A stretch of 43,587 nt of DNA, from the sequence record NC_027993.1, one strand, 5' to 3'. The notes beneath the pieces are model-generated. The model ran no database searches. It saw nothing but the letters and a program-made list of their open reading frames with translations, and was not told the DNA's origin. Every line of letters starts with the position of its first letter. The first letter of the stretch is position 1. Both the position numbers and the translations under genes were made by a program. Source of the DNA: Escherichia phage K1G. This document shows positions 4,345-39,039 of the stretch, one piece after another.

Positions 4345-4408
4345 AGTGCCTGTGATTATTCCAGTTATTCCACTCAATTGTAAATGTTGGAATAAACTAT
4401 TCGAATAG

Positions 4409-4437
4409 TTGACTTTTCACCAAAAATGTGCTAAGCT
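4409..4437 (+). promoter_or_regulatory. sigma70-like promoter TTGACT-N17-TAAGCT with TGn extension; -35 overlaps 16-bp perfect palindrome AACTATTCGAATAGTT (4395-4410)
   Basis: hexamers and spacing read directly; -10 is weak (3/6) but preceded by TG. Confidence 0.45.
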
Positions 4438-4617
4438 CCACCTGAGCTTGTGAAGTATGAACAAGCGACCGCGGCGCGGGCAGGTAACGGAGCGGGACGT
4501 AAGTCCTGAGTGTAGTTACGCTGACGCGTTCGGAAGGGCCATAGTCTATCGCTTGTGTAAAAAAGTAACTGGTTTACTGAGATTACGCCGTTTCTATGTT
4601 TAAATGATAAGGACTAG

Positions 4618-4640
4618 CGCCCCGCTTTATGGCGGGGCTT
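4618..4640 (+). promoter_or_regulatory. leader hairpin GCCCCGC-TTTATG-GCGGGGC (possible attenuator or processing site) just upstream of spanin RBS
   Basis: 7-bp GC stem followed by short TTTA; same hairpin in reverse orientation at 36779-36798. Confidence 0.4.
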
Positions 4641-4662
4641 TACTTATCGAGAAAGGAGAAAC

Positions 4663-12302: not shown

Positions 12303-12328
12303 AAGGCCCCGTTTGGGGCCTTTTTCTT
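12303..12328 (+). terminator. rho-independent terminator (convergent junction)
   Basis: AAGGCCCC-GTTT-GGGGCCTT hairpin then TTTCTT; reverse complement of the hairpin at 24829. Confidence 0.7.
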
Positions 12329-14722: not shown

Positions 14723-14752
14723 TTTAAACCCCTTCATTGTTGGTGTAAGTGA

Positions 14753-14781
14753 ATAGTACCCTATTATATTGGGGTGTGCAA
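14753..14781 (-). promoter_or_regulatory. early-type promoter TTGCAC-N17-TACTAT (family 2) driving the antisense cassette
   Basis: minus-strand sequence cTTGCACaccccaatataatagggTACTATtcac nearly identical to + strand promoter at 37043; contains AATAG-N4-CTATT. Confidence 0.5.
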
Positions 14782-14889
14782 GTAATGTGATAGAATAAGT
14801 TTGCGCCTAGTGTCGCACACGAAAAGCGGGTGGTTCCCGTCTGGCGCATTTATCGTTAACCTGTAACCTCTTAACCAAAGGATTAAAGA

Positions 14890-24824: not shown

Positions 24825-24828
24825 AACT

Positions 24829-24854
24829 AAGGCCCCAAACGGGGCCTTTTCTCT
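24829..24854 (+). terminator. rho-independent terminator (convergent junction, bidirectional)
   Basis: AAGGCCCC-AAAC-GGGGCCTT hairpin then TTCTCT. Confidence 0.7.
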
Positions 24855-24990
24855 ACTCTTCTGATAGCTTCTCCAGTACAAACGCCAGTTGCGCATTAGC
24901 GGCGTCTCTTTGCTGTCGTAGTCGTAGAACCTCTTCTTCGAGTTCCTTGATACGTTTTTGCAATGCGGGAATCGGGGCTATGACGTTCAT
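24853..24990 (-). CDS. small coiled-coil protein (45 aa)
   Basis: ATG overlaps stop of upstream gene (ATGA); sequence MNVIAPIPALQKRIKELEEEV... Confidence 0.3.
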   Translation of the reverse strand: MNVIAPIPALQKRIKELEEEVLRLRQQRDAANAQLAFVLEKLSEE

Positions 24991-25172
24991 TTCTTACCTT
25001 CGCTTTTCTTGAAACTGCGCTTTATATCCGGCAGAGTGTAGCATCGTGAATTTTCGTACTTACCGTCCGAGCTTACCAAAACAAAGCTGTTGCCGTCTTT
25101 TGATATGTACTCGATGGTGAAAGTATTGAATGAATGTACGCTGTATATTTCGTCTCCAACATTAAGTTTCAT
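24987..25172 (-). CDS. hypothetical protein
   Basis: 61-aa ORF, start overlaps helicase stop. Confidence 0.45.
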   Translation of the reverse strand: MKLNVGDEIYSVHSFNTFTIEYISKDGNSFVLVSSDGKYENSRCYTLPDIKRSFKKSEGKK

Positions 25173-26593
25173 TTCTTACCTCGTCTCTTCATATAATTAA
25201 GCAACTCTTCTTGCACAGATTTCTTTTCGTCAGTACGCGCGGCGACAACCTCGTCCAGCGTGTCTTTAGCAACGATGTGGTACAGGAACACCGGCCTCTC
25301 GTGTCCTGCCTGTTTCTGGCGGACCGGGCCTATTCGCTCGACAACCTGCAAATAGTGCTCAAGGTTCCAGCCTTGCGAGATGAATGCCAGATGATGTCCG
25401 CCGTCCTGTAAATTCAAACCATGTCCGGCCGACGCAGGATGCACGCATAAGATTTCGATTTCGCCGCGGTTCCATGCTTCCATCTGCTTATTACCCTTAG
25501 CACCTTTCGCGAATGCCTGCGCCTGCGGGAAACGTTTCAGGATACGCTCCAGTTCGTGCTTGAACTGATAGGCTACCAGTAGCGGAGCACCCTGTAACTC
25601 CTCAACAATTGACTCCAGCGCATCCAGTTTCATGTCGTGCACTTTCTCCCAGTCTTTGGTTGCTTCTCCGTCTGGCCCTGATACATACACAGCACCAGAA
25701 GCAATCTGCAAACACTTTGACGTCTTTGCCGCGGCGTTAGCCGCTTCAACTTCTCCGCTTTCCAGTTCCGCGAATAACTTTTCCTCCATATCGATGTACG
25801 CCTGACGCGCTTTCTTCGGCAGATCTATTTCAACCGGCACTATAATAGGCGCTTCACAACCGAACCACTCAGCGGCGTCAATCGTGAGACTAATGTCCTT
25901 CATCTTCTGGTGGATCTCATTATCTGCACCAGGACGCGCATGATACTCCCGCGCCATCGCCGACTTACCTTTTTGCACAGAGTTGAACCAGCGGTCGGTG
26001 AACGCAGTGTACGATGAACCGAGGCGCTCGCCAGCGTCGATAAACCAGTTCTGGCCCCACAGGTCTTTGAGGCCGTTAGGCGACGGTGTGCCCGTCAGAT
26101 TGATGAAACGCTTAACTTTACCGAACGCCACTTTGCTGAGCGCCTTTGCCCGCTTGCTACCACCAGAACGGCTACGGAATGACTTCAGTTTCGTACTCTC
26201 ATCTGCAACGATAACCGTAAAAGGCCAGTCGTCTTTGCCGTAGTAGTCAATCAGCCACTCGATAACTTCGTAGTTGGTACACACCACGTTAACATCTGAC
26301 TCCAGCGCCGCGATGCGGCGTTTCTCTGAACCTGTCGCATCTACGACACGCAGGCACGGGAATCGCCATTTCTCTTGTTCTGCCGGCCATGTACCTGATG
26401 CAACGCGCAACGGGGCGAGAATTAACACGCGGTCGTCGTCCGTAAGTTGCCCGTTGCGGAACAGGCGGTTTAAAGTCCACAGGACGCTGCCAGTCTTCCC
26501 GGCGCCCATGCTCGCCCAAATATTACAGCGATGGTGTTGCAGCATGAACGAAGTCATGAGCTTCTGGTATTCGCGCCTTTGAAACTTACTCAT
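25169..26593 (-). CDS. SNF2-family DNA helicase/ATPase
   Basis: motif I GAGKTG, motif II DESTKL, LTGTP; 474 aa. Confidence 0.8.
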   Translation of the reverse strand: MSKFQRREYQKLMTSFMLQHHRCNIWASMGAGKTGSVLWTLNRLFRNGQLTDDDRVLILAPLRVASGTWPAEQEKWRFPCLRVVDATGSEKRRIAALESDVNVVCTNYEVIEWLIDYYGKDDWPFTVIVADESTKLKSFRSRSGGSKRAKALSKVAFGKVKRFINLTGTPSPNGLKDLWGQNWFIDAGERLGSSYTAFTDRWFNSVQKGKSAMAREYHARPGADNEIHQKMKDISLTIDAAEWFGCEAPIIVPVEIDLPKKARQAYIDMEEKLFAELESGEVEAANAAAKTSKCLQIASGAVYVSGPDGEATKDWEKVHDMKLDALESIVEELQGAPLLVAYQFKHELERILKRFPQAQAFAKGAKGNKQMEAWNRGEIEILCVHPASAGHGLNLQDGGHHLAFISQGWNLEHYLQVVERIGPVRQKQAGHERPVFLYHIVAKDTLDEVVAARTDEKKSVQEELLNYMKRRGKK

Positions 26594-27410
26594 TTACGGC
26601 CCCCATAAACGCCTTTATAAATTCGGCGGCTACTTGCGGGACGATGGCATTGCCGTAACCGCGCAATCGTCCCACTCTTGCGGGTATCCCATTAGCCAGC
26701 GGGAATGCGCCGGGTTCAACCGGCCGGAACTTTCCATCACGGCATCCGAGCCAGTCAGCATCTGACCAGAAGCCGTGGTGCGGGTTGGTTGACTCGCTTT
26801 CAATCCCTGCTCTGTTGAGTAGTCCAGCCTGTCGAATGTTCTGTCCCTCCCGTCCGTGCGAATCACTGTCTCTCCGCTCCCTCTGAAGTCGTTCGCTGTC
26901 GGTGTAGGCCAGTTCGTGCGCGCCAAAGAAGAGTCGTTCTCTTTTGTGCGGTGCGCCGACGCTACAAGCTGGGAGTACAGCAAACCCGACGGCGTAGTCT
27001 TCTCCTTCCAGGTGAGCTTGTAAATCGCACATCCACGATTTTGCAATTGCTGCCGCAACCTGCTCCCCAAAGATGACTGGAGGGCGGCACTCGCTGATGA
27101 GGTCGAGGAAGACCGGCGCGAGGTGTCTCGGGTCGAACTGTCCGAGTTGCTTTCCCGCCGCGCTAAACGGTTGGCAAGGCGGGCTTCCCGTCCAGAGAGG
27201 CGCATCTTCCGGAACTCCCGCAAGTCTGAGCGCGAGAGGCCAGCCGCCGATACCCGCGAAAAAATGACACTGGGTGAACCCGTCAAGGTCTTCTGGCTTA
27301 ACTTCGGTAATGCTTCTTTCATCTACAACTCCAAAAGGTATGTGACCCTGTTTTATCAACTCACGCAGCCACGCGGCTGCGCCTTTATCCCATTCATTGT
27401 AATAGTTCAT
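26586..27410 (-). CDS. DNA (cytosine-5)-methyltransferase
   Basis: motif I FFAGIGGW, motif [19 protein letters not shown] (ENV-like), C-terminal GYGNAIVP. Confidence 0.8.
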
Positions 27411-27598
27411 TTCGCCACCAGAACTAACTCTTTACGCCCGAACGCCGTAACGTTACCGGTTACATCTTCGATAACCAGTTTACCGTTCGACTCGACGAAC
27501 ACCGTATCAACGGCAACAGGTTGACGTGTCTTAACGTTGAAAATCATGTCACCCGGTACGATGTCACGTGCTGGTTTGCGGTCATATTCGTGTTTCAT
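27407..27598 (-). CDS. hypothetical protein
   Basis: 63 aa, RBS AAGGAA, first gene downstream of promoter at 27632-27660. Confidence 0.5.
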   Translation of the reverse strand: MKHEYDRKPARDIVPGDMIFNVKTRQPVAVDTVFVESNGKLVIEDVTGNVTAFGRKELVLVAK

Positions 27599-27628
27599 TT
27601 CTCAATTCCTTATATTGTTGGTGTAGGA

Positions 27629-27913
27629 CTAACTATAATAGCTAGCTATTAGGTCGTCAACCTGTTTAAACGAACCAACGACAAAAACATTCGCACCACG
27701 TTTACGCATCCGCTCATGTTCCCGTAGCTGGTGCGGGTCTGGCTTCGTGTTCTCGTCTTTCTTAACCTCGACGAACCAGACTATGCCGCCGGGGAGAATT
27801 ACCAGCAGGTCTGGGGCGCCGGAACGCCCCTCGTAGGAGAGTTTGCGAACGAGGCCGCCAAGGGCCTCGAATCGGTCTTTTGCGTATTTCTGTACGCGGC
27901 CCTCTTTAGTCAT
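27629..27913 (-). CDS. VRR-NUC domain nuclease
   Basis: PD-(D/E)xK signature GAPDLLV...VEVKK; ATG at 27913 overlaps upstream stop. Confidence 0.6.
   Translation of the reverse strand: MTKEGRVQKYAKDRFEALGGLVRKLSYEGRSGAPDLLVILPGGIVWFVEVKKDENTKPDPHQLREHERMRKRGANVFVVGSFKQVDDLIASYYS
27632..27660 (-). promoter_or_regulatory. early promoter TTGACG-N17-TATAGT (family 1) with 16-bp perfect palindrome TAATAGCTAGCTATTA in spacer
   Basis: read on minus strand: TTGACGacctAATAGCTAGCTATTATAGTT. Confidence 0.6.
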
Positions 27914-28062
27914 GAGCGTAGATCCCAAGTAAGGAAAGCCCCTCCTAGAACGGCGACACCGACAAACTTAAAGAACAGGCCGTAACAGAACATCGCGGCT
28001 ATTCCTGCACCGAGTAGCAGTGCGAGCATGGTTACTATCACCCGAAATACGAACATTGTCAT
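27910..28062 (-). CDS. small membrane protein (50 aa, 2 predicted TM)
   Basis: strong RBS GGGAGGGG 9 nt upstream of ATG; hydrophobic MTMFVFRVIVTMLALLLGAGIAAMF... Confidence 0.4.
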   Translation of the reverse strand: MTMFVFRVIVTMLALLLGAGIAAMFCYGLFFKFVGVAVLGGAFLTWDLRS

Positions 28063-28144
28063 AATACGCACCCCTCCCGTTTGGTATGCTCAATTCCGCA
28101 GCGCGGGCAGATTCGACAGTCTTCTTCATAAAACCAGTAAATTT

Positions 28145-28276
28145 TCATTCCAGCACCCACAGATAAATTGCGATGAACATGCCCAATATGGCAACCATCA
28201 TGCCGTATTGACCCTCGTGACAGTAGACACCGGCAGCAAATCCCGCCAGTACCGCGATAATCAGTTTACTTGGCAT
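28145..28276 (-). CDS. small membrane protein (43 aa)
   Basis: ATG overlaps 3' end of polymerase gene; hydrophobic sequence MPSKLIIAVLAGFAAGVYCHEGQYGMMVAILGMFIAIYLWVLE. Confidence 0.3.
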   Translation of the reverse strand: MPSKLIIAVLAGFAAGVYCHEGQYGMMVAILGMFIAIYLWVLE

Positions 28277-30446
28277 AACGCTTCATCTCCGCGCCTTCTG
28301 CTACAAGAGGGAACCCCTCGGCCCACTCTGGTAATTCGCACATCAATCGTTCCAGTTCTGCGACATTGTATTCTGGTAAATCTGGTGTCTCGCAGATAAT
28401 CTCATCGTGAACATGAAGCACAATCGGGTAGCCGTTTGCTTCGACGTTCAGCAGTGCATTAGCCAACAAATCACGGCACAGCGCCTGAGTGCAGTTTTCC
28501 ACCAGTTTACCAGAGTAGGTGTACTGGAAGCCCCACTGACGGGTTAACTGGTTTTCGCCCTGGTACTTGATGCGCACGTTGGTAGACACCTTCCCGTCTT
28601 CGTCTGTCTCTTTCGACACGCTTAGCCCAACACCCGGATAAGACATAACGCGGCCCGACGGCAACGTCATCCGCAACCACCAACCGGCGACTTTGTTGCC
28701 GTTGTTGTCCGTTTCTACGTTGCGCGAAAACTTAACTCCCCGCGGCCCTGCGGTGAACTCTTTGCCCGGATTGCGGATAGCTGCCATAGCTGCGTCTTCA
28801 ATATCCCGCCAGAAAGCTACTGTTTCCGGGTGTGACTCACGCCACATACGCTTGATAGCGTCGCAGGTACGCCACACTTTCTTATCAAGAATATAAGATG
28901 GTCGGTCATCATTTTCACCTGGACGTGGTGGTCGCTTGGCTTCCTGAATACGCGCCCACTCATATCCACGTGCGGTAGCAGCCCAGATGTAGTCGGGGAA
29001 AGTCCCGTCCATTGTTTTTGCCATATCAACGAGGTCAAGGCCGAGGTTCTTGGCGAACTGTACGAATGCGCCGACACCACCCGCGTAGCCAAGTCCAAGT
29101 TCGCATGCCTTACCAATCTGGCGTAAGTCTTTACGTTCTTTCTTAATGTAATCCGGCTCCATGCCGAACATCTTGCCTGCGGTTACGCAGTAAATATCCA
29201 GCCCGGCACGGAACGTATCAAGCGCGGTTTCTTCGCCAGCCAGCCACGCCAAACCGCGGCCTTCAACGTTCGAGTAGTCGGCGACGACAAACTTATGTCC
29301 GGCTTCCGGGATAATGCAGCTGCGAACCGTAGATGCCGTTAGCTTGGCTACATCAAAACGGCGATGTGCTCGGCCCTTAAGTAATGCTGAAATACCTTTA
29401 TCCAGTTCATCATCGTGATAGTACCCACGCGCCAGGTTCTGCGGCTGGAAGCCTTTACCCGCAAATCGTAACGTACGTTTAGCTCCACCATACTGGATGC
29501 AACCGCGACGGCGGTCGTCAGACGAGCGGCCTAACAGCAGCGGGTTATATTTCGTTGACGCAGTGGATGCCGCCCCGAGGCGCATTTCTATAATCGTGCG
29601 GGCGTCGTCCGGTAAATCATCGTCAGCAAGCAGGTCGTTAAGCGTAGACTTCTGCGCGTTGTGGATGCGATGCGCAGGTGCCAGTTCACGCAGAATCGGC
29701 AGGAAGTCCTTACCTGTAAGCGAGCCGCCGTATTTACGTTGGGCTTCTTCCTGTAACTGTGCCTTGTGTTTCTCCACAGCTTCAATTGCGGCTTCCGCCA
29801 GCGCAACGTCGACCTTAAACCCGCGGTCGTTAATTAACTGGTCCAGTTCCAGTACACGGTCTTCGAACTCGGAGTTACCCCAACGCGGCAACTTATGGAA
29901 CACTTCACGCATCGCGGTGATGTCGCTAACGGCGTACTTGATGAACAGCGCCCACTCATCCGGGTGCGTTTCAGCAGTGTAGCGGCGAATTTTGTAGTTC
30001 TTCGGCGTCGGTTTAGAGAAACGCTGAATAAGCGCTTTGCCTCGTTTGTCTTTCGCGTTGTCTGCAGACACGCCAAGCACTTCGCACAATGCGTCGAGTG
30101 AACCCGGCAGCGCGTGACGAAACGCCCAAATCATCGTATCAATGGTGTTGCTTACGGGAATATCAAAACCCCAGCAGTGCTTCATGATGAGTCTGTCGAA
30201 CATTGAGCCGTTGTGCCACACCATCTTAATACGGCTGTTTGGTTTCACCAGACGGCGTAACGCGCGGTGCAAATCACCCGGCATGTCGCTGCCGTTGGTG
30301 CAATCCCATACCTGCACAGGCTCGTCGTCAAAAGCATATGTGCAGATTAGAACTTCGGTGGTTGGATGTTCGGCGTAAGCGTAGGAGCCGACTTTCTTCA
30401 AATCGGCTTCGGAGAATGTTTCAAAGTCTAAGAACAGGTAACTCAT
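28266..30446 (-). CDS. family-A DNA polymerase with 3'-5' exonuclease domain
   Basis: N-terminal Exo I motif FLDFETFS, C-terminal motif C HVHDEIICE; 726 aa. Confidence 0.85.
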   Translation of the reverse strand: MSYLFLDFETFSEADLKKVGSYAYAEHPTTEVLICTYAFDDEPVQVWDCTNGSDMPGDLHRALRRLVKPNSRIKMVWHNGSMFDRLIMKHCWGFDIPVSNTIDTMIWAFRHALPGSLDALCEVLGVSADNAKDKRGKALIQRFSKPTPKNYKIRRYTAETHPDEWALFIKYAVSDITAMREVFHKLPRWGNSEFEDRVLELDQLINDRGFKVDVALAEAAIEAVEKHKAQLQEEAQRKYGGSLTGKDFLPILRELAPAHRIHNAQKSTLNDLLADDDLPDDARTIIEMRLGAASTASTKYNPLLLGRSSDDRRRGCIQYGGAKRTLRFAGKGFQPQNLARGYYHDDELDKGISALLKGRAHRRFDVAKLTASTVRSCIIPEAGHKFVVADYSNVEGRGLAWLAGEETALDTFRAGLDIYCVTAGKMFGMEPDYIKKERKDLRQIGKACELGLGYAGGVGAFVQFAKNLGLDLVDMAKTMDGTFPDYIWAATARGYEWARIQEAKRPPRPGENDDRPSYILDKKVWRTCDAIKRMWRESHPETVAFWRDIEDAAMAAIRNPGKEFTAGPRGVKFSRNVETDNNGNKVAGWWLRMTLPSGRVMSYPGVGLSVSKETDEDGKVSTNVRIKYQGENQLTRQWGFQYTYSGKLVENCTQALCRDLLANALLNVEANGYPIVLHVHDEIICETPDLPEYNVAELERLMCELPEWAEGFPLVAEGAEMKRYAK

Positions 30447-30460
30447 TATTTTTGACCCTT

Positions 30461-30486
30461 AGTAAAAAGGCCCAATGAAGGGCCTT
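30461..30486 (-). terminator. rho-independent terminator for leftward transcripts
   Basis: minus-strand AAGGCCC-UUCAUU-GGGCCUU followed by UUUAC. Confidence 0.6.
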
Positions 30487-30505
30487 AGTTAAATTGATTC
30501 AGATA

Positions 30506-31132
30506 TTAGCGACGACGACGCTCGCGGCGCGGTGCTTCATCTTCTTCGTCGTCTTCCAGGTCATTTACGCTGGCAGCGACTTTAGAACCGCCAAACGCTT
30601 TACCTTCACCAACGTATTTAATAGCCAGCAGGTTAACGCCGAGGACTTTGTATTTCTGGCTGAACCAGATTTCAACGCTTACGTTAGCGACGCAGCCGCT
30701 GTAAACCTGTTCACCTTCAATCTGTTCGCCGTCTACATTGAAGTCCTGTTCTACCTGAGTCTCGCCTTTTTTAGAGGTTACAATCAGTGGCTGTTTCTGT
30801 GCCTTCGCCTTGAAGTAGAAGCCTTCCGGGAAGTCTTCAAACGGATTGTCGCGCTCGGCAATGTCTTTAATCGCACATTTATCCATGTGCTTACCTTCGC
30901 CGTAGTTGGACTTCATCCACTTCTCAGCGGCAGCTGCGCCCAACGCTTCTTCAACCACAGCGTAAACGGTGTCGTAGAGCGCGTCGATTTGTGCGTGGTC
31001 AGACGGCAGGATGATAGTCGCGCTGTACTGGCCTTTAGTGATTGAGCCATCATCGTTTTCACGGTCTTTTTCGCGTTCGAATACGTTAACCCATGCAGTG
31101 TTTACTTTACGCAGATTCAGTTTAATACCCAT
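30506..31132 (-). CDS. ssDNA-binding protein (DUF2815-like) with acidic C-terminal tail
   Basis: 208 aa, C-terminus DLEDDEEDEAPRRERRRR; adjacent to Cas4-like exonuclease and polymerase as in known phage replication modules. Confidence 0.65.
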   Translation of the reverse strand: MGIKLNLRKVNTAWVNVFEREKDRENDDGSITKGQYSATIILPSDHAQIDALYDTVYAVVEEALGAAAAEKWMKSNYGEGKHMDKCAIKDIAERDNPFEDFPEGFYFKAKAQKQPLIVTSKKGETQVEQDFNVDGEQIEGEQVYSGCVANVSVEIWFSQKYKVLGVNLLAIKYVGEGKAFGGSKVAASVNDLEDDEEDEAPRRERRRR

Positions 31133-31185
31133 CGTGATTTCTCGCTTTTCAGTTTACTCCGGGAACTGCCCGGCCAGTGATTAGA

Positions 31186-31214
31186 ACTATAATAGCTAAC
31201 TATTCGGGTGTCAA
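31186..31214 (-). promoter_or_regulatory. early promoter TTGACA-N17-TATAGT (family 1)
   Basis: minus strand TTGACAcccgAATAGTTAGCTATTATAGTT; near-palindromic AATAG-N4-CTATT. Confidence 0.6.
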
Positions 31215-31218
31215 CACT

Positions 31219-32469
31219 TTATTCCAAATCTTCTTCACTAACCTGATTCCACTCAGGACGTTTGTCGTCTGCCGTTGCGACACATGGTGCGCCTGGCTTA
31301 CGGGTAATAAACGGCTCAAGCGCTGCCATCTCATCCGCAGAAAGAACTTTTGCTGCCTCCGTAGGGGACATCAATACCTCTTTTTTGAGAATGTCGCCGT
31401 GTGACACTTCAATCGCATCGGCATCTTTCCACGCACGATTACCCAGGCGGCCTTCTACCAGTTTGTACCCTGGCACTTTATTACCGGAATGCAATGCGGC
31501 GGACATCGCTTTCTCAACCTTGTCGATGTGCTGGCGCAACAGCGGCAACTTCTCATACTCAACTACGAGTTGCTCCGTCGTCAGTTCCAGCACAAAGTCG
31601 TCTTCAAGTTCTTCCGCTAGTACAGAATTAACCGTCTTTGTACGCGCGGCACACTGTTCAGAGAACCGGCACCACTGGCAACCATCGACCGACGGTTTAA
31701 AGTCCGACGCTTTCAGGTTCTTCTTTCCACGGAAATAAGCATCAAGCGCTAACAGTGCCCGTTTCTGTGCGAACTTAGCGAACAGTTCCAGACCTTCGAC
31801 CGAGATGTCCCACTCTGACGCACCCCCCGCGTACGGCTGGAAGATGACCAGGCGCACTACTGTGATGTTATAACGTCTCTTGAGTCGGCGATAAACACCG
31901 AGAGCGTAAAGCATAAGCTGCTTGTTTTCTTTCGCTTCAACACGATGCCGTCCAGTTTTAAGGTCGCCAATAATGAGCATGTGCTCGTCGGTGTTCGCCA
32001 GTTCCTGGACAGCAACGAGGTCAGCCGTTCCGAACGTCTCGACACCTTCATACCCAGGATGCAATACCTCAGTAAGATTGACTCGCATTTCCAGCTTGGC
32101 GTAAGTCGCTACGTCGATAATCGCTTTGCAGTAGTCGGTGTACTTGCGCACCTGCTCAATCATGTCCGCCGTAATCAGTACCGCGCCTTTCATTGGGCTG
32201 ATTAGCGCCTTAATCTGGCCTTTACCTTCATCCAGCACGTAAGCGCCGACTTCACGCTCTAATGGCAGAGCAGTGCCTTTGATGTACTGGTTAAGGTGCA
32301 TCTCCGCTATGGTGTGGCATGCAGTCCCTGTAACGGCGGCTTTACCAGACGTGTTGGGAATATCTTTCTCACAGGCCAGTGATGCACTGCACGCCAGCCA
32401 CTTTTTAGCGCCAGACGGCGACAGTAAGGCGTGCACATCGTTATTGCCGCCGCGTTCCTTTAAAATCAT
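31219..32469 (-). CDS. Cas4/RecB-like PD-(D/E)xK exonuclease (DUF2800-like)
   Basis: N-terminal LLSPSGAKKWLACSA, nuclease motif IIGDLKTG...QLMLYA, C-terminal Cys cluster CQWCRFSEQC; ATG at 32469 with RBS GGGAGAG. Confidence 0.7.
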   Translation of the reverse strand: MILKERGGNNDVHALLSPSGAKKWLACSASLACEKDIPNTSGKAAVTGTACHTIAEMHLNQYIKGTALPLEREVGAYVLDEGKGQIKALISPMKGAVLITADMIEQVRKYTDYCKAIIDVATYAKLEMRVNLTEVLHPGYEGVETFGTADLVAVQELANTDEHMLIIGDLKTGRHRVEAKENKQLMLYALGVYRRLKRRYNITVVRLVIFQPYAGGASEWDISVEGLELFAKFAQKRALLALDAYFRGKKNLKASDFKPSVDGCQWCRFSEQCAARTKTVNSVLAEELEDDFVLELTTEQLVVEYEKLPLLRQHIDKVEKAMSAALHSGNKVPGYKLVEGRLGNRAWKDADAIEVSHGDILKKEVLMSPTEAAKVLSADEMAALEPFITRKPGAPCVATADDKRPEWNQVSEEDLE

Positions 32470-33363: not shown

Positions 33364-33427
33364 TGGGCTTTTCTAAAATAATTAATATGGTACTATTCAC
33401 ATATCAACTGACTAAGGAGTAATTGGC

Positions 33428-33643
33428 ATGCAACCATCTGAACTAGGTATCCGTGTAGAGCAACGCCGTAAAGAACTCGGTATCTCCCAGCGCCATCTGG
33501 CTGTCCTGGCCGGTGTTTCCCAAGGCGCGATTAACCAGCTGGCACTTGGGGTAACTCAGGACGTCCGCCCAGCGACGCTGTTTAAACTGGCGGAAGTGCT
33601 GCAAGTAGACGCCAAGTGGCTGGCGTTCGGTGAAGGGGCTTAA
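33428..33643 (+). CDS. XRE/Cro-type HTH transcriptional regulator
   Basis: 71 aa; HTH segment ISQRHLAVLAGVSQGAINQL; RBS AAGGAG; divergent from leftward early operon. Confidence 0.7.
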   Translation: MQPSELGIRVEQRRKELGISQRHLAVLAGVSQGAINQLALGVTQDVRPATLFKLAEVLQVDAKWLAFGEGA

Positions 33644-33854: not shown

Positions 33855-36118
33855 TCCAAATCCTCCTCTGTCACTGTCAGCATCTCATTCGGTTCATATA
33901 TTGTCTTCGGAATCTTGTTATCAGTTATCCGGGTGTTCAGCCTGTAACGGCCAGGGATTATCTGATTGTTTTCGTCAGTCCCCGGAACAAGATACCCAGC
34001 CTCAACCATTTTCTTAATCTTCCCGCGTTCTATGGCTTCTTTGGAGTTAAACGCCTTTGCATTGGGGTCAGACTGTGCGAGCTTATTAGCGGCGGCGACT
34101 GTGATGCCTTCGTTGCCGTTGTAGGTTCCTTCCGCCAGTTCAAACGCCGCCAGTATCGTGGCTTCTGAACTGTTGACGGCGTTCTCTATGGTTTTACGTA
34201 CGTTTTCTTTACCTTCTTTCGTCAACCCTTCTTCCCGCTCTTTCTCCTCGTCAGTCTTGAACGGCTCGAAACCCCACGGCATTAACACAAGTGCCTTATG
34301 CGGCTCCGGCAGGTCTAGGTTTACGATTGTGCCGTATTCCTCCGTGCTACCGAGGAACTCAACCGCACGGTACTCTTTCGGCGGCGGCGCTTCACGGAAC
34401 TGTACAGACTCCAGCACCATACCAACCGTCTTCTGTTGAGGCCCGTGCTTGAATTTCGAGTGGTATACATTTATCTGGCGGTCGGTAGCTCGTTCGATTG
34501 TCAGTTCCACGTCGACGCCAGCATACAGCGCCCCACTGCCACGGGCTTTCTTTCCGCCCTTCGGCGTATGGTGGACAACGCCTACCGCAGCTTTAGTCGC
34601 GTCACGTACTTCTTTCAGGATGGCGATAACCTTACCCATGCCGATTGCCGTTGATGAACTGTTCTCGTCGAACTTATCAATCGTCAGGGCTAGCGTCTGG
34701 TTGAGGGTGTCGAACGCAACCATGCCGATGGGTTCGTCACCCGCAGTTTCACGCATCAACTTAATCAGGCTTTTCAGTTTTCCGACTTCGCCCATGTCGA
34801 TGACATGTACATAATCTTTACCTTCCTCGCTATACTTAGCTGCGAGCGCATCGATACGGGTGCGTGTAGCTGCGCCGCCCTCACCGTCGATATAAAAATG
34901 GTGGCAACGCTGCGTATCTGCCCCCGCAAACCGGTATCCGGCGGCGCTCAGGTACATCATCCCCAGCGTATAGAACGATTTGTACGTGCCGGATTCCCCG
35001 ACAATATCCCAGATACAATCTGACGGCATGTACCCTTCAACGACGAAATCCGCCTTTACCGGTTCCGGTAACTCGTCATCCTCTGAGTCCTCGTCATCTT
35101 CCAGGTCGTCGAGGCTGCATGAAACAGATTCACGTGCACCCCATCCGATGGCCTCTGCGACTTCACTGAACGGCAGCCCCGTCGCATCGCACGCATACTT
35201 CCACACCTCTTTCGGTGACATGCCTTCGGTCGCCGTAATGTCAGTGTCGTGAATCATGGTTACGTTCGGCGCCTCATATCCCTCTCGCGGGAAGCACAGC
35301 AGGAAGTCATCCGGGCGCGGCGTCGGGTCGCTGTAGTTTTCTGCGTGTTCTGGCGTAGCTGGCATCTTAAGGCCTCGTGGCGTCATGATACCGCCATACT
35401 CGAACGCCAGTGCCTCGAACGCGTCGGTAAACGCGGTGCGCAGTTCTTCCGGTATCTGGTAATCCGATGCGCTGCTAACGTCAACGGCGGGGATGCCTTC
35501 CAGTAACTCGTCCGGGTCAATCAGGTCGTTGCGGCGTGACCAGATAACGGTAGAGCCAACCGGAGGCAGGTACATCGGTTGCGAAAGAGTGAACCCGCTG
35601 CGGTCAGCACCCATGCTTTTGAAGAAGTGTTCCAGCAATCCATGGCGAACACGGATGATGTCACCACCTTCGACCGGACGGGCCAGCGGCATGACGACGC
35701 GAAAGCGCGGGGACTCGTCGGTATGTGATGCCGTGGTATAGATACACATGCCCCGGCGGCTGCGTTTAACTAAGCGCACCGCTTCCTGATACTCTTCTGG
35801 TGTTGCGCTGTCGAAGTCCAGATACGCCAGCGACGATTTGCTTACAGACGCGTCACAGCGATAGAAAAAGCCTTTACGCGCTTGCTTAAAGTCGCCGGTT
35901 TCCGGGTCTTTTACAGTGCTGTGCGTCGAGTCGCACGCGGCGGTGATATAACCGGGCGCGGTCTTCGGGTTAATTCCGTCACGGACAGCATCGAGTGGCT
36001 GGATTAACTCTTTCAGGTCGTCCAGTGTTGCCGTGTGTGTGGTTCTGACGTTTATATCCTTTTTCTCAGCCCGCGCGTTGCGACGCGACCACGAGTAGGA
36101 TAAAATTACATCGGACAT
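33851..36118 (-). CDS. DNA primase/helicase (RecA-fold ATPase)
   Basis: 755 aa; Walker A-like GESGTYKSF, large N-terminal domain; RBS GAAGGAAA. Confidence 0.7.
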   Translation of the reverse strand: MSDVILSYSWSRRNARAEKKDINVRTTHTATLDDLKELIQPLDAVRDGINPKTAPGYITAACDSTHSTVKDPETGDFKQARKGFFYRCDASVSKSSLAYLDFDSATPEEYQEAVRLVKRSRRGMCIYTTASHTDESPRFRVVMPLARPVEGGDIIRVRHGLLEHFFKSMGADRSGFTLSQPMYLPPVGSTVIWSRRNDLIDPDELLEGIPAVDVSSASDYQIPEELRTAFTDAFEALAFEYGGIMTPRGLKMPATPEHAENYSDPTPRPDDFLLCFPREGYEAPNVTMIHDTDITATEGMSPKEVWKYACDATGLPFSEVAEAIGWGARESVSCSLDDLEDDEDSEDDELPEPVKADFVVEGYMPSDCIWDIVGESGTYKSFYTLGMMYLSAAGYRFAGADTQRCHHFYIDGEGGAATRTRIDALAAKYSEEGKDYVHVIDMGEVGKLKSLIKLMRETAGDEPIGMVAFDTLNQTLALTIDKFDENSSSTAIGMGKVIAILKEVRDATKAAVGVVHHTPKGGKKARGSGALYAGVDVELTIERATDRQINVYHSKFKHGPQQKTVGMVLESVQFREAPPPKEYRAVEFLGSTEEYGTIVNLDLPEPHKALVLMPWGFEPFKTDEEKEREEGLTKEGKENVRKTIENAVNSSEATILAAFELAEGTYNGNEGITVAAANKLAQSDPNAKAFNSKEAIERGKIKKMVEAGYLVPGTDENNQIIPGRYRLNTRITDNKIPKTIYEPNEMLTVTEEDLE

Positions 36119-36176
36119 GTTATATTTCCTTCAGCAAGTAATTTGGCCTCGGCGTTCACCGCGTCGGGGCTTTCTT

Positions 36177-36452
36177 TTATTCCAGGTCGCGGGAGATATT
36201 ACCCTCGGGCACCAACACTTTTCCAATACTTCTCGCTTTCTCTGTAATAGGCGTCGCTCTTGTTGCCCGATAAAACTTTCCTTTATTAAGAATCTCACCA
36301 TGTCGCTCGAGCACATCTAAAGCATGTTTGATCGGGTTTACACCGTAATTATCCAACCGGTATCTCCGAAGCCCGTCTACCGTAAAAGCGCCGTTCGCTT
36401 CGGTCAGTCTGCGTGCACACATTAATATGTGTTTCTGGAATTTAGTTAGCAT
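36177..36452 (-). CDS. hypothetical protein
   Basis: ATG at 36452 with RBS AAGGAG; overlaps 3' end of upstream HTH gene. Confidence 0.45.
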   Translation of the reverse strand: MLTKFQKHILMCARRLTEANGAFTVDGLRRYRLDNYGVNPIKHALDVLERHGEILNKGKFYRATRATPITEKARSIGKVLVPEGNISRDLE

Positions 36453-36621
36453 CTTTAACGTTCTCCTTAATCCACGCCTCCACAGTAGCGCGGTCAAAGG
36501 TACCTGGCTGACGGTAGCCGTTGATAACGCGGCAACACTCCGGGAACTTTCCTGACCGAAGCCAGCGATTAAGAGTCATAGGGGAAACCCCGATTAAGTC
36601 TGCTACTTCTTTCTGTGTCAT
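36442..36621 (-). CDS. AlpA/Xis-like HTH DNA-binding protein
   Basis: MTQKEVADLIGVSPMTLNRWLRSGKFP; ATG at 36621 with RBS GAGGG (track ORF begins at TTG 36651). Confidence 0.6.
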   Translation of the reverse strand: MTQKEVADLIGVSPMTLNRWLRSGKFPECCRVINGYRQPGTFDRATVEAWIKENVKDAN

Positions 36622-36778
36622 TTTACGCGCCCTCTCTATCAAGTGAAACAACTATAACACCTACAATAGACAAACACAACCTATTGACAAAATAAAATGT
36701 AGCTGTAAAATCAACGTATCGAATGGCTTTAGTTAAGAATTACTTAGAAACAATATTCTTAAGTCTCGGGTACTTAAA

Positions 36779-36798
36779 GCCCCGCCATAAAGCGGGGC
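36779..36798 (-). promoter_or_regulatory. leader hairpin, reverse-orientation copy of the 4618-4637 hairpin
   Basis: GCCCCGC-CATAAA-GCGGGGC on + strand equals reverse complement of the spanin leader hairpin. Confidence 0.35.
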
Positions 36799-37042
36799 GC
36801 TAAATAGTACTCTTGGTAACGTTAGTATCTAAGTTTCCTCAAAGTAACAGCAAGTGGCAAGAAAGCCCCCGTCTATTTAAATTTTACCCTCCTTCATAAG
36901 CCACTGATAATTAAAAGTTTCTATAGTTGCCGTAAACGTGGAAGAGAGTACTTCACTTCGCTGGGGTGGGCTAACGCCCACCCACTGCGTTGCGTACTCT
37001 TTTAAGAAACGAAAGAATCACAACGGCAACGTAACTATTCTC

Positions 37043-37071
37043 TTGCACACCCCAACATAATAGGATACTAT
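37043..37071 (+). promoter_or_regulatory. early promoter TTGCAC-N17-TACTAT (family 2)
   Basis: cTTGCACaccccaacatAATAGGATACTATTcac. Confidence 0.5.
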
Positions 37072-37096
37072 TCACTTATCGAAACGAGACAGAGGA

Positions 37097-37297
37097 GTGA
37101 GGGTTATGTTTAAACGTGGTCAGTTGGTTAAATACTCCGACGATAAACACGGCATAATTGAATTAAAATCTGCTTTATTTCCAGGAAAGTACGTAGTTAC
37201 CGTGCAAAATGTGAGAGGAGTAAATTCACAAATATACGTAGCGGAGGAGAACTTAAAACTCATCGGCAACAATTTTAAATTTAAAGGGGGAGGGTGA
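37097..37297 (+). CDS. hypothetical early protein
   Basis: 66 aa, RBS GAGGAGTGAGGG. Confidence 0.5.
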   Translation: MRVMFKRGQLVKYSDDKHGIIELKSALFPGKYVVTVQNVRGVNSQIYVAEENLKLIGNNFKFKGGG

Positions 37298-37301
37298 AGT
37301 G

Positions 37302-37502
37302 ATGGAAGAATTATTTGAAGAACTGAAACATCATGATTTCGAGGAAATATATTTCGTAGCTGAACGCTACGAGGTGCATCTGGCGGACGGTATAACGGTT
37401 ATTACATCTACCAGCGAGCGAATGTTAAATAGCTTACGAGCAATACGAACGGCATCGAATCATGATGCTTGTGCCGACGACGCTGAGGGAGGTTGCCGTT
37501 AA
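37302..37502 (+). CDS. hypothetical early protein
   Basis: 66 aa from ATG 37302, RBS GGGGGAGGG. Confidence 0.5.
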   Translation: MEELFEELKHHDFEEIYFVAERYEVHLADGITVITSTSERMLNSLRAIRTASNHDACADDAEGGCR

Positions 37503-37705
37503 TGCGAATCCGTATAACTGACCGCAGGCTTATCCGTATAACTGACCGCAGGCTTATCCGTATAACTGACCGCAGGCTTATAGATTTCGGTATCTCGGTA
37601 GGTGATGTTTTTCCGGCGTTCAGCATCAACCATTATGGTTTTATGATTGAGTACAAAGGGTCGTTATTGTTCGTGTATCGGGATGAATGTGAGGTTCTGG
37701 TATGA
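37502..37705 (+). CDS. small protein containing three RITDRRLI repeats
   Basis: ATG overlaps upstream stop (TAATG), RBS GAGGGAGG; 3 x 24 bp tandem repeat is in frame. Confidence 0.4.
   Translation: MRIRITDRRLIRITDRRLIRITDRRLIDFGISVGDVFPAFSINHYGFMIEYKGSLLFVYRDECEVLV
37510..37581 (+). repeat. perfect tandem direct repeat, 3 x 24 bp (CCGTATAACTGACCGCAGGCTTAT)
   Basis: three identical consecutive 24-mers read directly. Confidence 0.9.
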
Positions 37706-37857
37706 GAGAAGCATTTGAACGGTGGGCTGTGGTCGAGGGTCTGCCGGTTAACAAGGGTTCAAAGAAAGAGTACCTGAACGTTAAGACGCGTCTCGCGTGG
37801 CGGGCGTGGAAAGCTGGTGTGCAATCCTTGATTGAAAGAGGTGTGAGGTATGGGTGA
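37702..37857 (+). CDS. small hypothetical protein (51 aa)
   Basis: ATGA overlap with upstream gene; sequence MREAFERWAVVEGLPVNKGSKKEYLNVKTRLAWRAWKAG... Confidence 0.4.
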   Translation: MREAFERWAVVEGLPVNKGSKKEYLNVKTRLAWRAWKAGVQSLIERGVRYG

Positions 37858-38050
37858 GTGGATTAAGTGTAGTGAGATGCTGCCGGGTAATGGGTATACG
37901 GATAAAGAGTTCCTGGTGTATGAAACGTTAAATAACGCAGTTCAGCACGATTATTACATAGTTCCTGATGACGGGAGAAAGCCTTTCTGGAATCACTACG
38001 ATAAGTACGTGACGCACTGGATGCCGTTACCCGAGCCGCCAGAAGTGTGA
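37850..38050 (+). CDS. DUF551-like protein
   Basis: N-terminus MGEWIKCSEMLPGNG resembles DUF551 proteins (W-I...LP motif). Confidence 0.5.
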   Translation: MGEWIKCSEMLPGNGYTDKEFLVYETLNNAVQHDYYIVPDDGRKPFWNHYDKYVTHWMPLPEPPEV

Positions 38051-38184
38051 TGTTCAATAGTTTGGGATTTTACTGAGTGACTTACGCTGCTACACAGCAG
38101 CGTACAACTTTAACTTAGTGTCGTCAAAAGGCGACACTTTCATCAAACGCAACAATCGAAGCGACTATTGCAGGAGATGCAACA

Positions 38185-38358
38185 ATGATTACTAAAGAAC
38201 AGGCTGAACGACTAATCACGTTAATCGACACGATGGTTGATGCGAAAACCGATTTAGCAACGGCAACAGAGGAATCCGCTACCTGGTCGCTTGAAGAAAG
38301 AGAAGCAGAAGCGGAAAGGGAGTTACTGGCGTTCATCGACTCTATAACACACCAATAA
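38185..38358 (+). CDS. small acidic hypothetical protein (57 aa)
   Basis: RBS AGGAG 10 nt upstream of ATG. Confidence 0.45.
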   Translation: MITKEQAERLITLIDTMVDAKTDLATATEESATWSLEEREAEAERELLAFIDSITHQ

Positions 38359-38365
38359 AATTTAC

Positions 38366-38394
38366 TTGCACACTAAGATAGAATAGGCTACTAT
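38366..38394 (+). promoter_or_regulatory. early promoter TTGCAC-N17-TACTAT (family 2)
   Basis: cTTGCACactaagatagAATAGGCTACTATTcat. Confidence 0.5.
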
Positions 38395-38425
38395 TCATTT
38401 ACACAAACGAGAGGAGAGACGGAAG

Positions 38426-38614
38426 ATGTTTAATTCAAACGAGCATTTGATTAAGGTTACCCCGTGTTGGGCCGGGTATCAGTTGGCGCACGACGGAAAG
38501 CACGTACCTAAACTTGTATTTGCCAATTATGAAGTTGCCCGCGGTTGGGTTAGCGCCGGAAAGAAAGGCGAACGCGGAATAATGAAGGTTGGATTTGTAG
38601 GAGATACGAAATGA
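38426..38614 (+). CDS. hypothetical early protein
   Basis: 62 aa, RBS GAGAGGAGAG. Confidence 0.5.
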   Translation: MFNSNEHLIKVTPCWAGYQLAHDGKHVPKLVFANYEVARGWVSAGKKGERGIMKVGFVGDTK

Positions 38615-39039
38615 ATAACAACGACGCAGTATTCGAGTACTTGGTAGCGGCAATGCACCTAACACTGGACGAACGTAAGGCGCACAAGCAGCAGTGCGAA
38701 GACCTGGCGCACGAGGTGCAGTCACTTAAGAACCAGTTACGTGATGCTTCGGCGCAGATTAAGGAGCTACACATGGCGTTGGCTACTGCTACAGGCGACG
38801 TGGAGGCGTACAAACTTATCCGCAAGGGCGAGCAATCTGGTTGCCGTAAGGAAGACGTTCAGGGATGCGTGCACGAGTGGGCGCTTGATGAAAAAGGTGA
38901 CTACTTCGTTTGCACTAAATGCGGTAAGCAAGAAGCGGAATTGAACGATTGCCAACACACTAATACTGTTGGTTTGCGTAAGGGTTTTGCGCCGGGGTTT
39001 ACTAAAAAGTGTCTGGATTGCGGGGCTAAACTGAAATGA
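38611..39039 (+). CDS. coiled-coil plus Zn-ribbon protein
   Basis: C-terminal CVHEW...CTKCGK...CLDCG; paralogous motif to 41292 and 41530 ORFs. Confidence 0.55.
   Translation: MNNNDAVFEYLVAAMHLTLDERKAHKQQCEDLAHEVQSLKNQLRDASAQIKELHMALATATGDVEAYKLIRKGEQSGCRKEDVQGCVHEWALDEKGDYFVCTKCGKQEAELNDCQHTNTVGLRKGFAPGFTKKCLDCGAKLK

What the first reader, a model, noticed from the sequence alone, without database searches (positions are those of the whole stretch)
36652..37096. Largest non-coding region (445 bp) between divergent early operons: likely control hub, possible origin
It contains the family-2 promoter (37043-37071), a plus-strand TTGACA-N16-TAAAAT (36706-36733), the leader hairpin at 36779-36798, an 8-bp-stem hairpin GGGTGGGC-TAAC-GCCCACCC (36964-36983) and AT-rich tracts. 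No ORF with an RBS was found.
Basis: seen in the sequence. Interest (0 to 1): 0.4.

Follow-up and report, generated by a model that had tools for sequence, protein, structure and literature searches.

The report
Phage early control region, structured leader
The largest gene-free stretch of this E. coli phage is most likely the switchboard between its two early gene blocks: back-to-back promoters, a long folded non-coding leader RNA and a second, almost invariant promoter, with nothing pointing to a replication origin.

Summary
The window is a K1G-like Kagunavirus. The gene-free gap is real and the largest in the genome. It runs 484 bp (36622-37105), from the HTH gene to the first rightward small gene. 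All listed features exist, but the TTGACA-N16-TAAAAT promoter lies at 36684-36711, not 36706-36733.

About 50 related gaps are all roughly 480-550 bp long but mosaic. The left 276 bp occurs in one clade only. The middle is shared with a second type. The last 99 bp, holding TTGCAC-N17-TACTAT and the 5' UTR, is 96-100% identical across the genus.

Every type has the same layout:
- a leftward promoter next to the HTH gene;
- a rightward TTGAC(A/T)...TAA(A/G)NT promoter;
- a type-specific folded region;
- a GC stem-loop at a fixed position, with unrelated sequences in different types;
- the invariant second promoter.

The other gap types carry a paralogue of a 263-bp non-coding element at window 4400-4662. 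That element is 95-99% identical in 177 phages and has compensatory base pairs. It is absent from Rfam.

The gap has no iterons, no DnaA-box cluster and no conserved ORF.

Best reading: a divergent early control region that encodes a structured rightward leader RNA of about 283 nt. An origin is unsupported but not excluded.

The parts
36442..36621 (-). HTH_17 (excisionase/AlpA-like) DNA-binding protein gene. It is the first gene of the leftward HTH/helicase-primase operon and forms the left border of the gap.
   Evidence: Pfam HTH_17 E=2.9e-9 and phrog_66. The same 59-aa gene is annotated in EC3-1 and other relatives. The allele type co-varies with the gap type.
36663..36690 (-). P_L candidate: TTGTCA-N16-TATTGT, giving a leader of about 35 nt to the HTH gene. 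Its -35 overlaps the -35 of P_R1.
   Evidence: Consensus scan, 9/12. Promoter-like sites at the same distance from the HTH ATG occur in the other gap types: TTGATT-N17-TATACT and TTGCTT-N17-TATACT, read from the sequence. Function is inferred.
36684..36711 (+). P_R1: TTGACA-N16-TAAAAT, predicted start near 36718.
   Evidence: 11/12 to consensus. 100% conserved in all 9 type-A gaps. It is one of only two TTGACW-N16-17-TAARNT sites in the window, against 0.14 expected. Equivalent promoters occur in all other gap types.
36733..36761 (+). AT-rich inverted repeat TTAAGAAT-N13-ATTCTTAA ('hairpin 1'). It is probably not a conserved structure.
   Evidence: It appears in the single-sequence fold, but its third pair is broken in most relatives and two uncompensated changes occur in L070.
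36768..36812 (.). Two-tier stem-loop. The lower helix is 36768-74/36806-12.
   Evidence: Fold z = -4.0. L070 and L071 keep both helices through compensatory changes. Positions 36775-36802 are a 28/28 inverted copy of the 3' hairpin of the element at 4615-4642. The T-rich tail (TTTAAGTA) is on the minus strand.
36871..36932 (+). Conserved islands shared by otherwise unrelated gap types: GTCTATT (36871-77), AAGCCACTGAT (36898-908) and GTTGCCGT (36925-32). Position 36898 is the border of the module shared with fPoEco01/K-01-type phages.
   Evidence: Alignments. BLAST borders at query positions 277 and 386.
36945..37000 (+). Extended stem-loop. The lower stem is 36945-51/36994-37000. The upper hairpin is 36964-71/36976-83, followed by TTTAAG. 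It is the proposed end or attenuator of the P_R1 leader and an insulator in front of P_R2.
   Evidence: Folds. A GC hairpin stands at the same position in every gap type with unrelated sequences (GGGTGGGC, TGGTGCC, GGGCAGGC). Within one type there is a compensatory C:G to T:A change and a G.T wobble. It does not meet the canonical terminator rule.
37007..37105 (+). Invariant core: an A-rich upstream stretch, the octamer ACGGCAAC (37023-30), P_R2 TTGCAC-N17-TACTAT (37043-71), a predicted start near 37078, and the 5' UTR with RBS GAGGAG...GAGGG.
   Evidence: 96-100% identity over 93-99 bp in the Kagunavirus records listed. 37013-37084 is about 94% identical in Jerseyvirus. Repeated copies of the promoter lie in front of other operons.
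37106..37297 (+). First rightward small gene (63 aa, phrog_12538). It forms the right border of the gap.
   Evidence: Annotated starts in relatives fall directly after the core.
4400..4662 (+). 'S element', outside the finding. It is a paralogue of the other gap types. It comprises promoter TTGACT-N17-TGcTAAGCT (4409-4437), a folded domain of about 114 nt (4438-4551), and hairpin 4619-4638 plus TTTACTTAT. It ends about 20 nt before the Rz-like spanin gene (4663).
   Evidence: 95-99% identity over its full length in 177 of 179 phage records. It is homologous to type-B gaps. Covariation and five concordant folds support the structure. Model R1 finds a diverged copy in Jerseyvirus Kenya-K9.

Best explanation
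The 484-bp gap is the early transcription-control region of a K1G-like Kagunavirus, and most of it is a transcribed non-coding leader rather than empty spacer. Two host sigma-70-type promoters sit back to back with overlapping -35 hexamers. P_L (36690-36663) drives the HTH and helicase-primase (replication) operon leftward. P_R1 (36684-36711) fires rightward from about 36718. P_R1 makes a leader of about 283 nt. It contains a conserved two-tier stem-loop (36768-36812) and short islands conserved across all relatives. It ends in a long stem-loop (36945-37000), which probably stops or attenuates part of the transcription and shields the next promoter. Directly behind it lies the nearly invariant P_R2 (TTGCAC-N17-TACTAT, 37043-71) with its 5' UTR, which serves the small rightward early genes. 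The adjacent HTH protein probably acts on the P_L/P_R1 segment. Shown here: the anatomy, its conservation, the mosaic borders, structure-preserving substitutions, and the paralogy of the other gap types with the element at 4400-4662. Inferred: promoter activity, the transcribed strand in this phage, what the stem-loops do, and the role of the HTH protein.
For: Identity and context. Gap length is conserved at 477-552 bp in 16 relatives while the sequence is mosaic. Promoters: which finds only two TTGACW-N16-17-TAARNT sites in the genome (here and at 4409) against 0.14 expected. P_R1 is invariant in 9 type-A gaps. Equivalent rightward promoters occur in types B, C and D. Structure: 36768-36812 is kept by compensatory changes in L070 and L071. 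A GC hairpin stands at the same position in all types with unrelated sequences, and shows compensatory and wobble variants within a type. Strand: the module 36898-37006 is 94-97% identical to the 3' part of type-B' units. Their 5' domain carries invariant G.U pairs and GC/GU/AU alternation that work only on the + strand. Leader rather than free sRNA: in the paralogue at 4400-4662 the hairpin lies about 20 nt from the spanin RBS, which leaves no room for another promoter. Core conservation. HTH allele linked to gap type. HTH gene early in a related phage: PMC12645636.
Against: There are no transcript data for any of these phages at this resolution. Neither hairpin passes the canonical terminator rule on the + strand, and the T-rich tail of 36779-98 is on the minus strand. 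The first predicted hairpin of the leader is not conserved. The window's own 5' domain does not match the covariance model of the S/B family (best 3.3 bits), so the parallel rests on layout and on the shared 3' module. P_R2 matches the sigma-70 consensus at only 7 of 12 positions, read directly from the sequence. It may need a factor, or it may not be a promoter. The compensatory changes in 36768-36812 are strand-symmetric.
Confidence: 0.6

Rival explanations
1. The gap holds one or more free-standing trans-acting small RNA genes. In particular, a minus-strand RNA of about 100 nt would run from TTATCA-N18-TAAAAT (36910-36881) to the inverted S-type hairpin (36798-36779, tail UUUAAGUA). It would be antisense to the P_R1 leader.
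For: A minus-strand promoter-like site scores 9/12. The hairpin is a 28/28 inverted copy of the 3' hairpin of the 4400-4662 element and has the same kind of T-rich tail on the minus strand as other minus-strand hairpins of this genome. The minus-strand fold has z = -4.1. 36736-36860 is the best-conserved part of the type-A module. L070 keeps TAAAAT with a TGn extension (read).
Against: The -35 of this promoter is not kept in L070 or L071 and is absent in B'-type gaps that share the -35 region. No comparable minus-strand unit exists in the other gap types. No target is known. It is compatible with the best explanation rather than exclusive of it.
Confidence: 0.2
2. The gap is, or contains, the phage origin of replication next to the helicase-primase operon. 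The origin would be activated by transcription from P_R1, with the hairpins and the inverted octamer pair GTTGCCGT/ACGGCAAC (36925-32 and 37023-30) as initiator or loading sites.
For: It lies beside the replication operon. A 100-bp stretch has GC 0.29. The cumulative GC skew reaches its minimum at about 37,000. The genome's most over-represented octamer occurs twice here as an inverted pair around the stem-loop, and six copies lie in 36027-38840.
Against: There are no iterons or tandem repeats in the gap and no DnaA-box cluster. The AT-rich stretch is the promoter pair itself. The skew turns at every coding-strand switch. The left 276 bp is swapped for unrelated sequence in phages with the same helicase-primase. 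The octamer is scattered over the whole genome in both orientations. The nearby perfect 24-bp x3 repeat (37508-37581) varies in copy number down to one among relatives.
Confidence: 0.12
3. Only the promoters matter. The rest would be recombination scar tissue of a mosaic junction, with the hairpins acting as ordinary terminators or insulators left from exchanged modules and no dedicated RNA function.
For: Module borders are sharp at 36898 and 37007. Recombinant gaps exist (BEU33, L029, L030, L070). The hairpin at 36779-98 is a displaced copy of another element's hairpin.
Against: Gap length and the order of features are conserved across unrelated sequence types. Compensatory substitutions maintain helices. 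The paralogous element at 4400-4662 is 95-99% identical in 177 phages, far above neutral expectation.
Confidence: 0.1

Closest known systems
Lambda late control unit P_R'-6S RNA-t_R' read through by Q (from my own knowledge)
   Same: A strong sigma-70 promoter (TTGACT-type -35) is followed by a non-coding transcript of about 200 nt that ends in a hairpin directly before lysis and structural genes. This holds especially for the paralogue at 4400-4662, in front of the spanin and head genes.
   Different: No Q-like protein was recognised. The hairpins have weak U-tracts. The unit studied here sits before early genes and is followed by a second promoter. No sequence relation is known.
HK022 put RNAs (cis-acting RNA-mediated antitermination; from my own knowledge)
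   Same: There are two paralogous folded RNA elements per genome. Each lies just downstream of a strong promoter at the head of a long operon. Their structure is conserved through compensatory changes.
   Different: Model R1 finds nothing in the HK022 early region. The folded domain is larger (about 95 nt, one short and one long irregular hairpin). An effect on RNA polymerase is untested. The window's own gap carries a different 5' domain.
Divergent early control regions of temperate phages (lambda P_L/O_L and P_R/O_R with cI and cro; from my own knowledge)
   Same: Back-to-back promoters lie between divergent early operons beside a small HTH protein gene. The HTH allele and the adjacent DNA are exchanged together as a module.
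   Different: This is a virulent phage with no repressor or immunity function known. No repeated operators were identified. Most of the gap is a transcribed leader.
T7 early-region RNase III processing hairpins (from my own knowledge)
   Same: Long irregular stem-loops with internal loops lie in non-coding stretches of early transcripts.
   Different: No cleavage data exist, and the position at the 5' end of the transcript differs from the intercistronic T7 sites.

Membership tests
Sigma-70 divergent promoter region | Two outward-facing -35/-10 pairs with 16-18 bp spacing | tested here: met
   P_R1 scores 11/12 and P_L 9/12. The P_R1 class occurs twice in the genome against 0.14 expected.
Sigma-70 divergent promoter region | Measured transcription starts | not testable with these tools
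   The only transcriptome paper found (PMC12645636) reports gene-level timing only.
Phage/plasmid iteron or DnaA-type origin | Three or more direct repeats (iterons) for an initiator | tested here: not met
   The repeat finder and TRF report none in 36622-37105.
Phage/plasmid iteron or DnaA-type origin | Cluster of DnaA boxes | tested here: not met
   One 1-mismatch hit lies in the gap (37041-49, which is the -35 of P_R2). The genome-wide count is below chance.
Phage/plasmid iteron or DnaA-type origin | AT-rich unwinding element | tested here: inconclusive
   GC is 0.29 at 36650-36749, but this stretch is the promoter pair.
Phage/plasmid iteron or DnaA-type origin | Replication initiates here | not testable with these tools
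   This needs marker-frequency data or 2D gels.
S/B-type structured leader (model R1 built here) | Match to the covariance model of the 5' domain | tested here: not met
   The best hit in 36500-37200 is 3.3 bits, E = 0.6, with filters off. Window 4438-4551 scores 124.5 bits but was in the training set. Kenya-K9, which was not in the training set, scores 28.1 bits.
S/B-type structured leader (model R1 built here) | TTGACW-N16-17-TAARNT promoter directly upstream | tested here: met
S/B-type structured leader (model R1 built here) | Shared 3' module (GTCTAT, ACTGAT, GC hairpin) | tested here: met
   36898-37006 is 94-97% identical to B'-type units.
Rho-independent terminator | GC-rich stem followed by at least 5 T in 8 | tested here: not met
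   No site in 36622-37105 passes the scan. The tails are GCTAAATAG and ACTGCGTTG on the + strand, and TTTAAGTAC on the - strand for 36779-98.
HK022 put RNA | Sequence or structure homology | tested here: not met
   R1 gives no hit in HK022 24000-32000. Caveat: the model was built from S/B elements, not from put.
HK022 put RNA | Makes RNA polymerase terminator-resistant in cis | not testable with these tools
   This needs in vitro transcription or reporter read-through assays.
Any Rfam 15 family | Score at or above the gathering threshold | tested here: not met
   No hit in the whole window. The permissive searches of both elements gave only hits below 20 bits.

The most novel reading that the evidence does not exclude
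The gap leader and the ultra-conserved element at 4400-4662 could be two members of an undescribed family of cis-acting phage leader RNAs. Each follows one of the only two consensus-class promoters in the genome. They would govern read-through of downstream hairpins and terminators into the long rightward transcription unit (early genes, lysis, packaging, head, tail). That would be an RNA-based or factor-assisted antitermination switch analogous to HK022 put or lambda Q/P_R', in virulent Guernseyvirinae.
Probability: 0.2. Interest if true: 0.7.

Novelty: new variant of a known kind. Interest (0 to 1): 0.45.

Why it matters
Kagunavirus and Jerseyvirus phages are among the most frequently isolated therapeutic candidates against K1/UPEC E. 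coli and Salmonella, yet I found no description of their transcription programme beyond gene-level timing. This region, together with its paralogue, defines where early transcription starts and how the rightward operon is entered. It also identifies the non-coding elements under the strongest constraint. That gives concrete targets for promoter and terminator mapping, for engineering (native strong promoters, insulators, safe insertion points), and for finding the early-to-late switch. The structured elements are absent from Rfam, so they would add a new phage RNA family if confirmed.

Tried and rejected
- **Rfam.** Searches at gathering and permissive thresholds found nothing.
- **Model R1.** The covariance model of the S/B 5' domain does not hit the window gap or the HK022 early region.
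- **BLAST against E. coli.** Neither the left module nor the S element matches 5,426 E. coli genomes, so they have no host or prophage source.
- **Local alignment with the S element.** The left module shares only the 28-nt inverted hairpin with it.
- **Small ORFs.** The ATG of the 26-aa ORF is specific to the window and the near-identical K1ind3. ORFs annotated in relatives (Bas73_0055, K9_046, Snoke_056, K-01 CDS0031/32) differ in length and cross unrelated modules, so I treat them as spurious.
- **Hairpin 1 (36733-36761).** Rejected as a conserved structure.
- **DnaA boxes and iterons.** None.
- **The 24-bp x3 tandem repeat at 37508-37581 as origin iterons.** Rejected because relatives carry two or one copy.
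- **GC skew as an origin signal.** Rejected because it follows the coding strand.
- **boxA.** A recalled resemblance of TACTCTTTTAAG (36995-37006) to rrn/lambda boxA was not pursued. It is absent in type B and C gaps.
- **RBS pairing.** A 16-nt complementarity between 36876-91 and the RBS of the first gene (37099-114) is type-A specific and within chance range.
- **Literature.** Searches on promoters, origins or intergenic regions of Guernseyvirinae found nothing relevant.

Full report
**Identity and setting.** The window is a K1G-like Kagunavirus (Guernseyvirinae). The region is 99% identical to K1ind2/K1ind3 and 95-96% identical to K1H. To the left, on the minus strand, lie a 59-aa HTH_17 protein gene, a small phrog_5169 gene and a 755-aa helicase-primase. 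To the right, on the plus strand, runs a string of small genes, followed further on by holin and endolysin. With the HTH start at ATG 36621 and the first rightward gene at ATG 37106, as annotated in relatives, the gap is 484 bp. It is the largest gap in a crude ORF map.

**Check of the observation.** All listed features exist. The exception is a coordinate: TTGACA-N16-TAAAAT lies at 36684-36711, not 36706-36733. The 'family-2' promoter is a real repeated element. There is a 35/37 copy at 14782-14746, a third full copy ending at 38398, and a partial copy at 33391 before a Cro-like gene. Each sits about 30 nt before an RBS and ATG. The gap is AT-rich. No ORF is credible. The ATG of the 26-aa ORF is absent in every relative except the near-identical K1ind3, and ORFs annotated in other phages are inconsistent.

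**Comparative anatomy.** I extracted the same gap from about 50 relatives (GenBank phages, IMG/VR, metagenomes).
- Its length is always about 480-550 bp, but the sequence is mosaic.
- The left 276 bp (36622-36897, 'type A') occurs only in the K1G/K1H/K1ind2-3 clade and a few metagenomic contigs.
- 36898-37006 is shared at 94-97% with fPoEco01/K-01-type phages.
- 37007-37105 is 96-100% identical across the genus. 37013-37084 is about 94% identical in Salmonella Jerseyviruses.
- Recombinant gaps exist (BEU33, L029, L030, L070/71).

Despite the unrelated sequences, each type has the same order of parts:
- a leftward promoter-like site 30-70 bp from the HTH ATG;
- a rightward promoter with a TTGAC(A/T) -35 and a TAA(A/G)NT -10;
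- a type-specific folded stretch;
- the short islands GTCTAT, AAGNNNCTGAT and TGCCGT;
- a GC hairpin at a fixed distance from the core, with unrelated sequences: GGGTGGGC, TGGTGCC or GGGCAGGC. Within a type it shows a compensatory C:G to T:A change and a G.T wobble variant;
- the invariant core.

In the window, the pattern TTGACW-N16-17-TAARNT occurs only twice, at 36684 and at 4409, against 0.14 expected.

**The paralogue.** The hairpin at 36779-98 with its flanks is a 28/28 inverted copy of 4615-4642. Reading that locus showed that 4400-4662 is homologous to the left and middle part of type-B gaps. It lies in a 343-bp gap behind a tail-gene terminator.
- The shared parts are the promoter TTGACT-N17-TGnTAAGCT, a GC-rich domain of about 114 nt, GTCTAT, and a 3' hairpin.
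- The element is 95-99% identical over its full length in 177 of 179 phage records from both genera.
- RNAalifold and five independent single-sequence folds give one architecture: a short hairpin plus a long irregular stem-loop. One long-range pair occurs as U:A, C:G and A:U. The apical hairpins have unrelated sequences. Two G.U pairs are invariant and can form only on the + strand.
- A covariance model (R1) finds a diverged copy at the syntenic place in Jerseyvirus Kenya-K9 that BLAST had missed. That copy has further compensatory stems and a different 3' hairpin.
- The hairpin stands about 20 nt before the RBS of an Rz-like spanin gene. The element is therefore a 5' leader, not a free-standing RNA gene.
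- It is not in Rfam and not in E. coli genomes.

**The window's own gap.** R1 does not match it, so its 5' domain is a different module. Within type A, the more distant L070/L071 (88% identity) keep the two-tier stem-loop 36768-36812 through compensatory changes in both helices. The AT-rich 'hairpin 1' is not kept. The 3' stem-loop extends to 36945-37000. Neither hairpin meets the canonical terminator rule on the + strand. The T-rich tail of 36779-98 is on the minus strand, like other minus-strand hairpins of this genome. This keeps alive a rival reading with a minus-strand RNA of about 100 nt. The HTH allele, including its recognition helix, co-varies with the HTH-proximal gap type. That fits either an operator-regulator module or simple linkage.

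**Origin hypothesis.** The gap has no iterons or tandem repeats and no DnaA-box cluster. The AT-rich part is the promoter pair. The GC skew turns with each coding-strand switch. The left module is exchanged between phages that share the helicase-primase. A perfect 24-bp x3.1 repeat at 37508-37581 looked iteron-like, but relatives carry two or one copy. I therefore give the origin reading about 0.12. It cannot be excluded without replication data.

**Interpretation.** The best-supported reading is a divergent early control region whose rightward half is a structured leader of about 283 nt between two tandem promoters. How the leader works is inferred, not shown. Possibilities are attenuation and insulation, put-like or Q-like read-through control, RNase processing, or a trans-acting role. 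I found no literature on these elements. One RNA-seq study of a related phage classes the HTH gene as early (PMC12645636).

Noticed in passing
window 4400-4662 (+): A 263-bp non-coding element lies between a tail-gene terminator and the Rz-like spanin gene. It is 95-99% identical in 177 of 179 Guernseyvirinae records. It has a consensus-class promoter, a covariation-supported folded domain of about 114 nt and a 3' hairpin. It is not in Rfam and is a paralogue of type-B early gaps.
   Followed up: yes
whole window; e.g. 36925-36932 (-), 37023-37030 (+), 37492 (-), 9143 (+), 28695 (-): ACGGCAAC/GTTGCCGT is the most frequent 8-mer in the genome. It has 22 copies, on both strands and in all reading frames. 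Synonymous-codon shuffles give 6.9±1.7. It is also the top 8-mer in Golestan (21 copies) and has 12 copies in Kenya-K9. 14 of 16 aligned sites are kept in Golestan against 7.5 expected. Its function is unknown.
   Followed up: partly
window 37508-37581: A perfect 24-bp x3.1 tandem repeat (ATCCGTATAACTGACCGCAGGCTT) lies in frame inside a small ORF. Its copy number differs among close relatives: 3 in K1H, 2 in K1ind3 and fKuEco01, and 1 in others.
   Followed up: partly
window 14746-14782 (-), 38366-38398 (+), 33391-33405 (+), 37043-37078 (+): The promoter-like element cTTGCACAC-N-ATAGGnTACTATTCAyTTA is repeated before four transcription units, including the Cro-like gene 33428-33643. It matches the sigma-70 consensus poorly (7/12) but is highly conserved.
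   Followed up: partly
HTH gene 36442-36621 and loci L002-L071: Three HTH alleles differ in the predicted recognition helix (SPMTLNRW, TRQTINNW, TRRTLNNW). They co-occur strictly with gap types A, B/D and C.
   Followed up: partly
L010 (BEU33) 1604-1661: The BEU33 gap carries a 58-bp insert, 98% identical to the 5' part of the 4400-4662 element, between its stem-loop and the core. This suggests recombination between the two loci.
   Followed up: no
L009 (Golestan) gap, about 1430-1460; the same place in L002, L011, L012: A (CTCA)n microsatellite sits just upstream of the type-B hairpin. Golestan carries about three more units than its relatives.
   Followed up: no
window 12303-12322 and 24829-24848: Near-identical AAGGCCC...GGGCCTT hairpins with T-rich tails on both strands lie at the two convergent gene junctions. 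They are likely bidirectional terminators.
   Followed up: no
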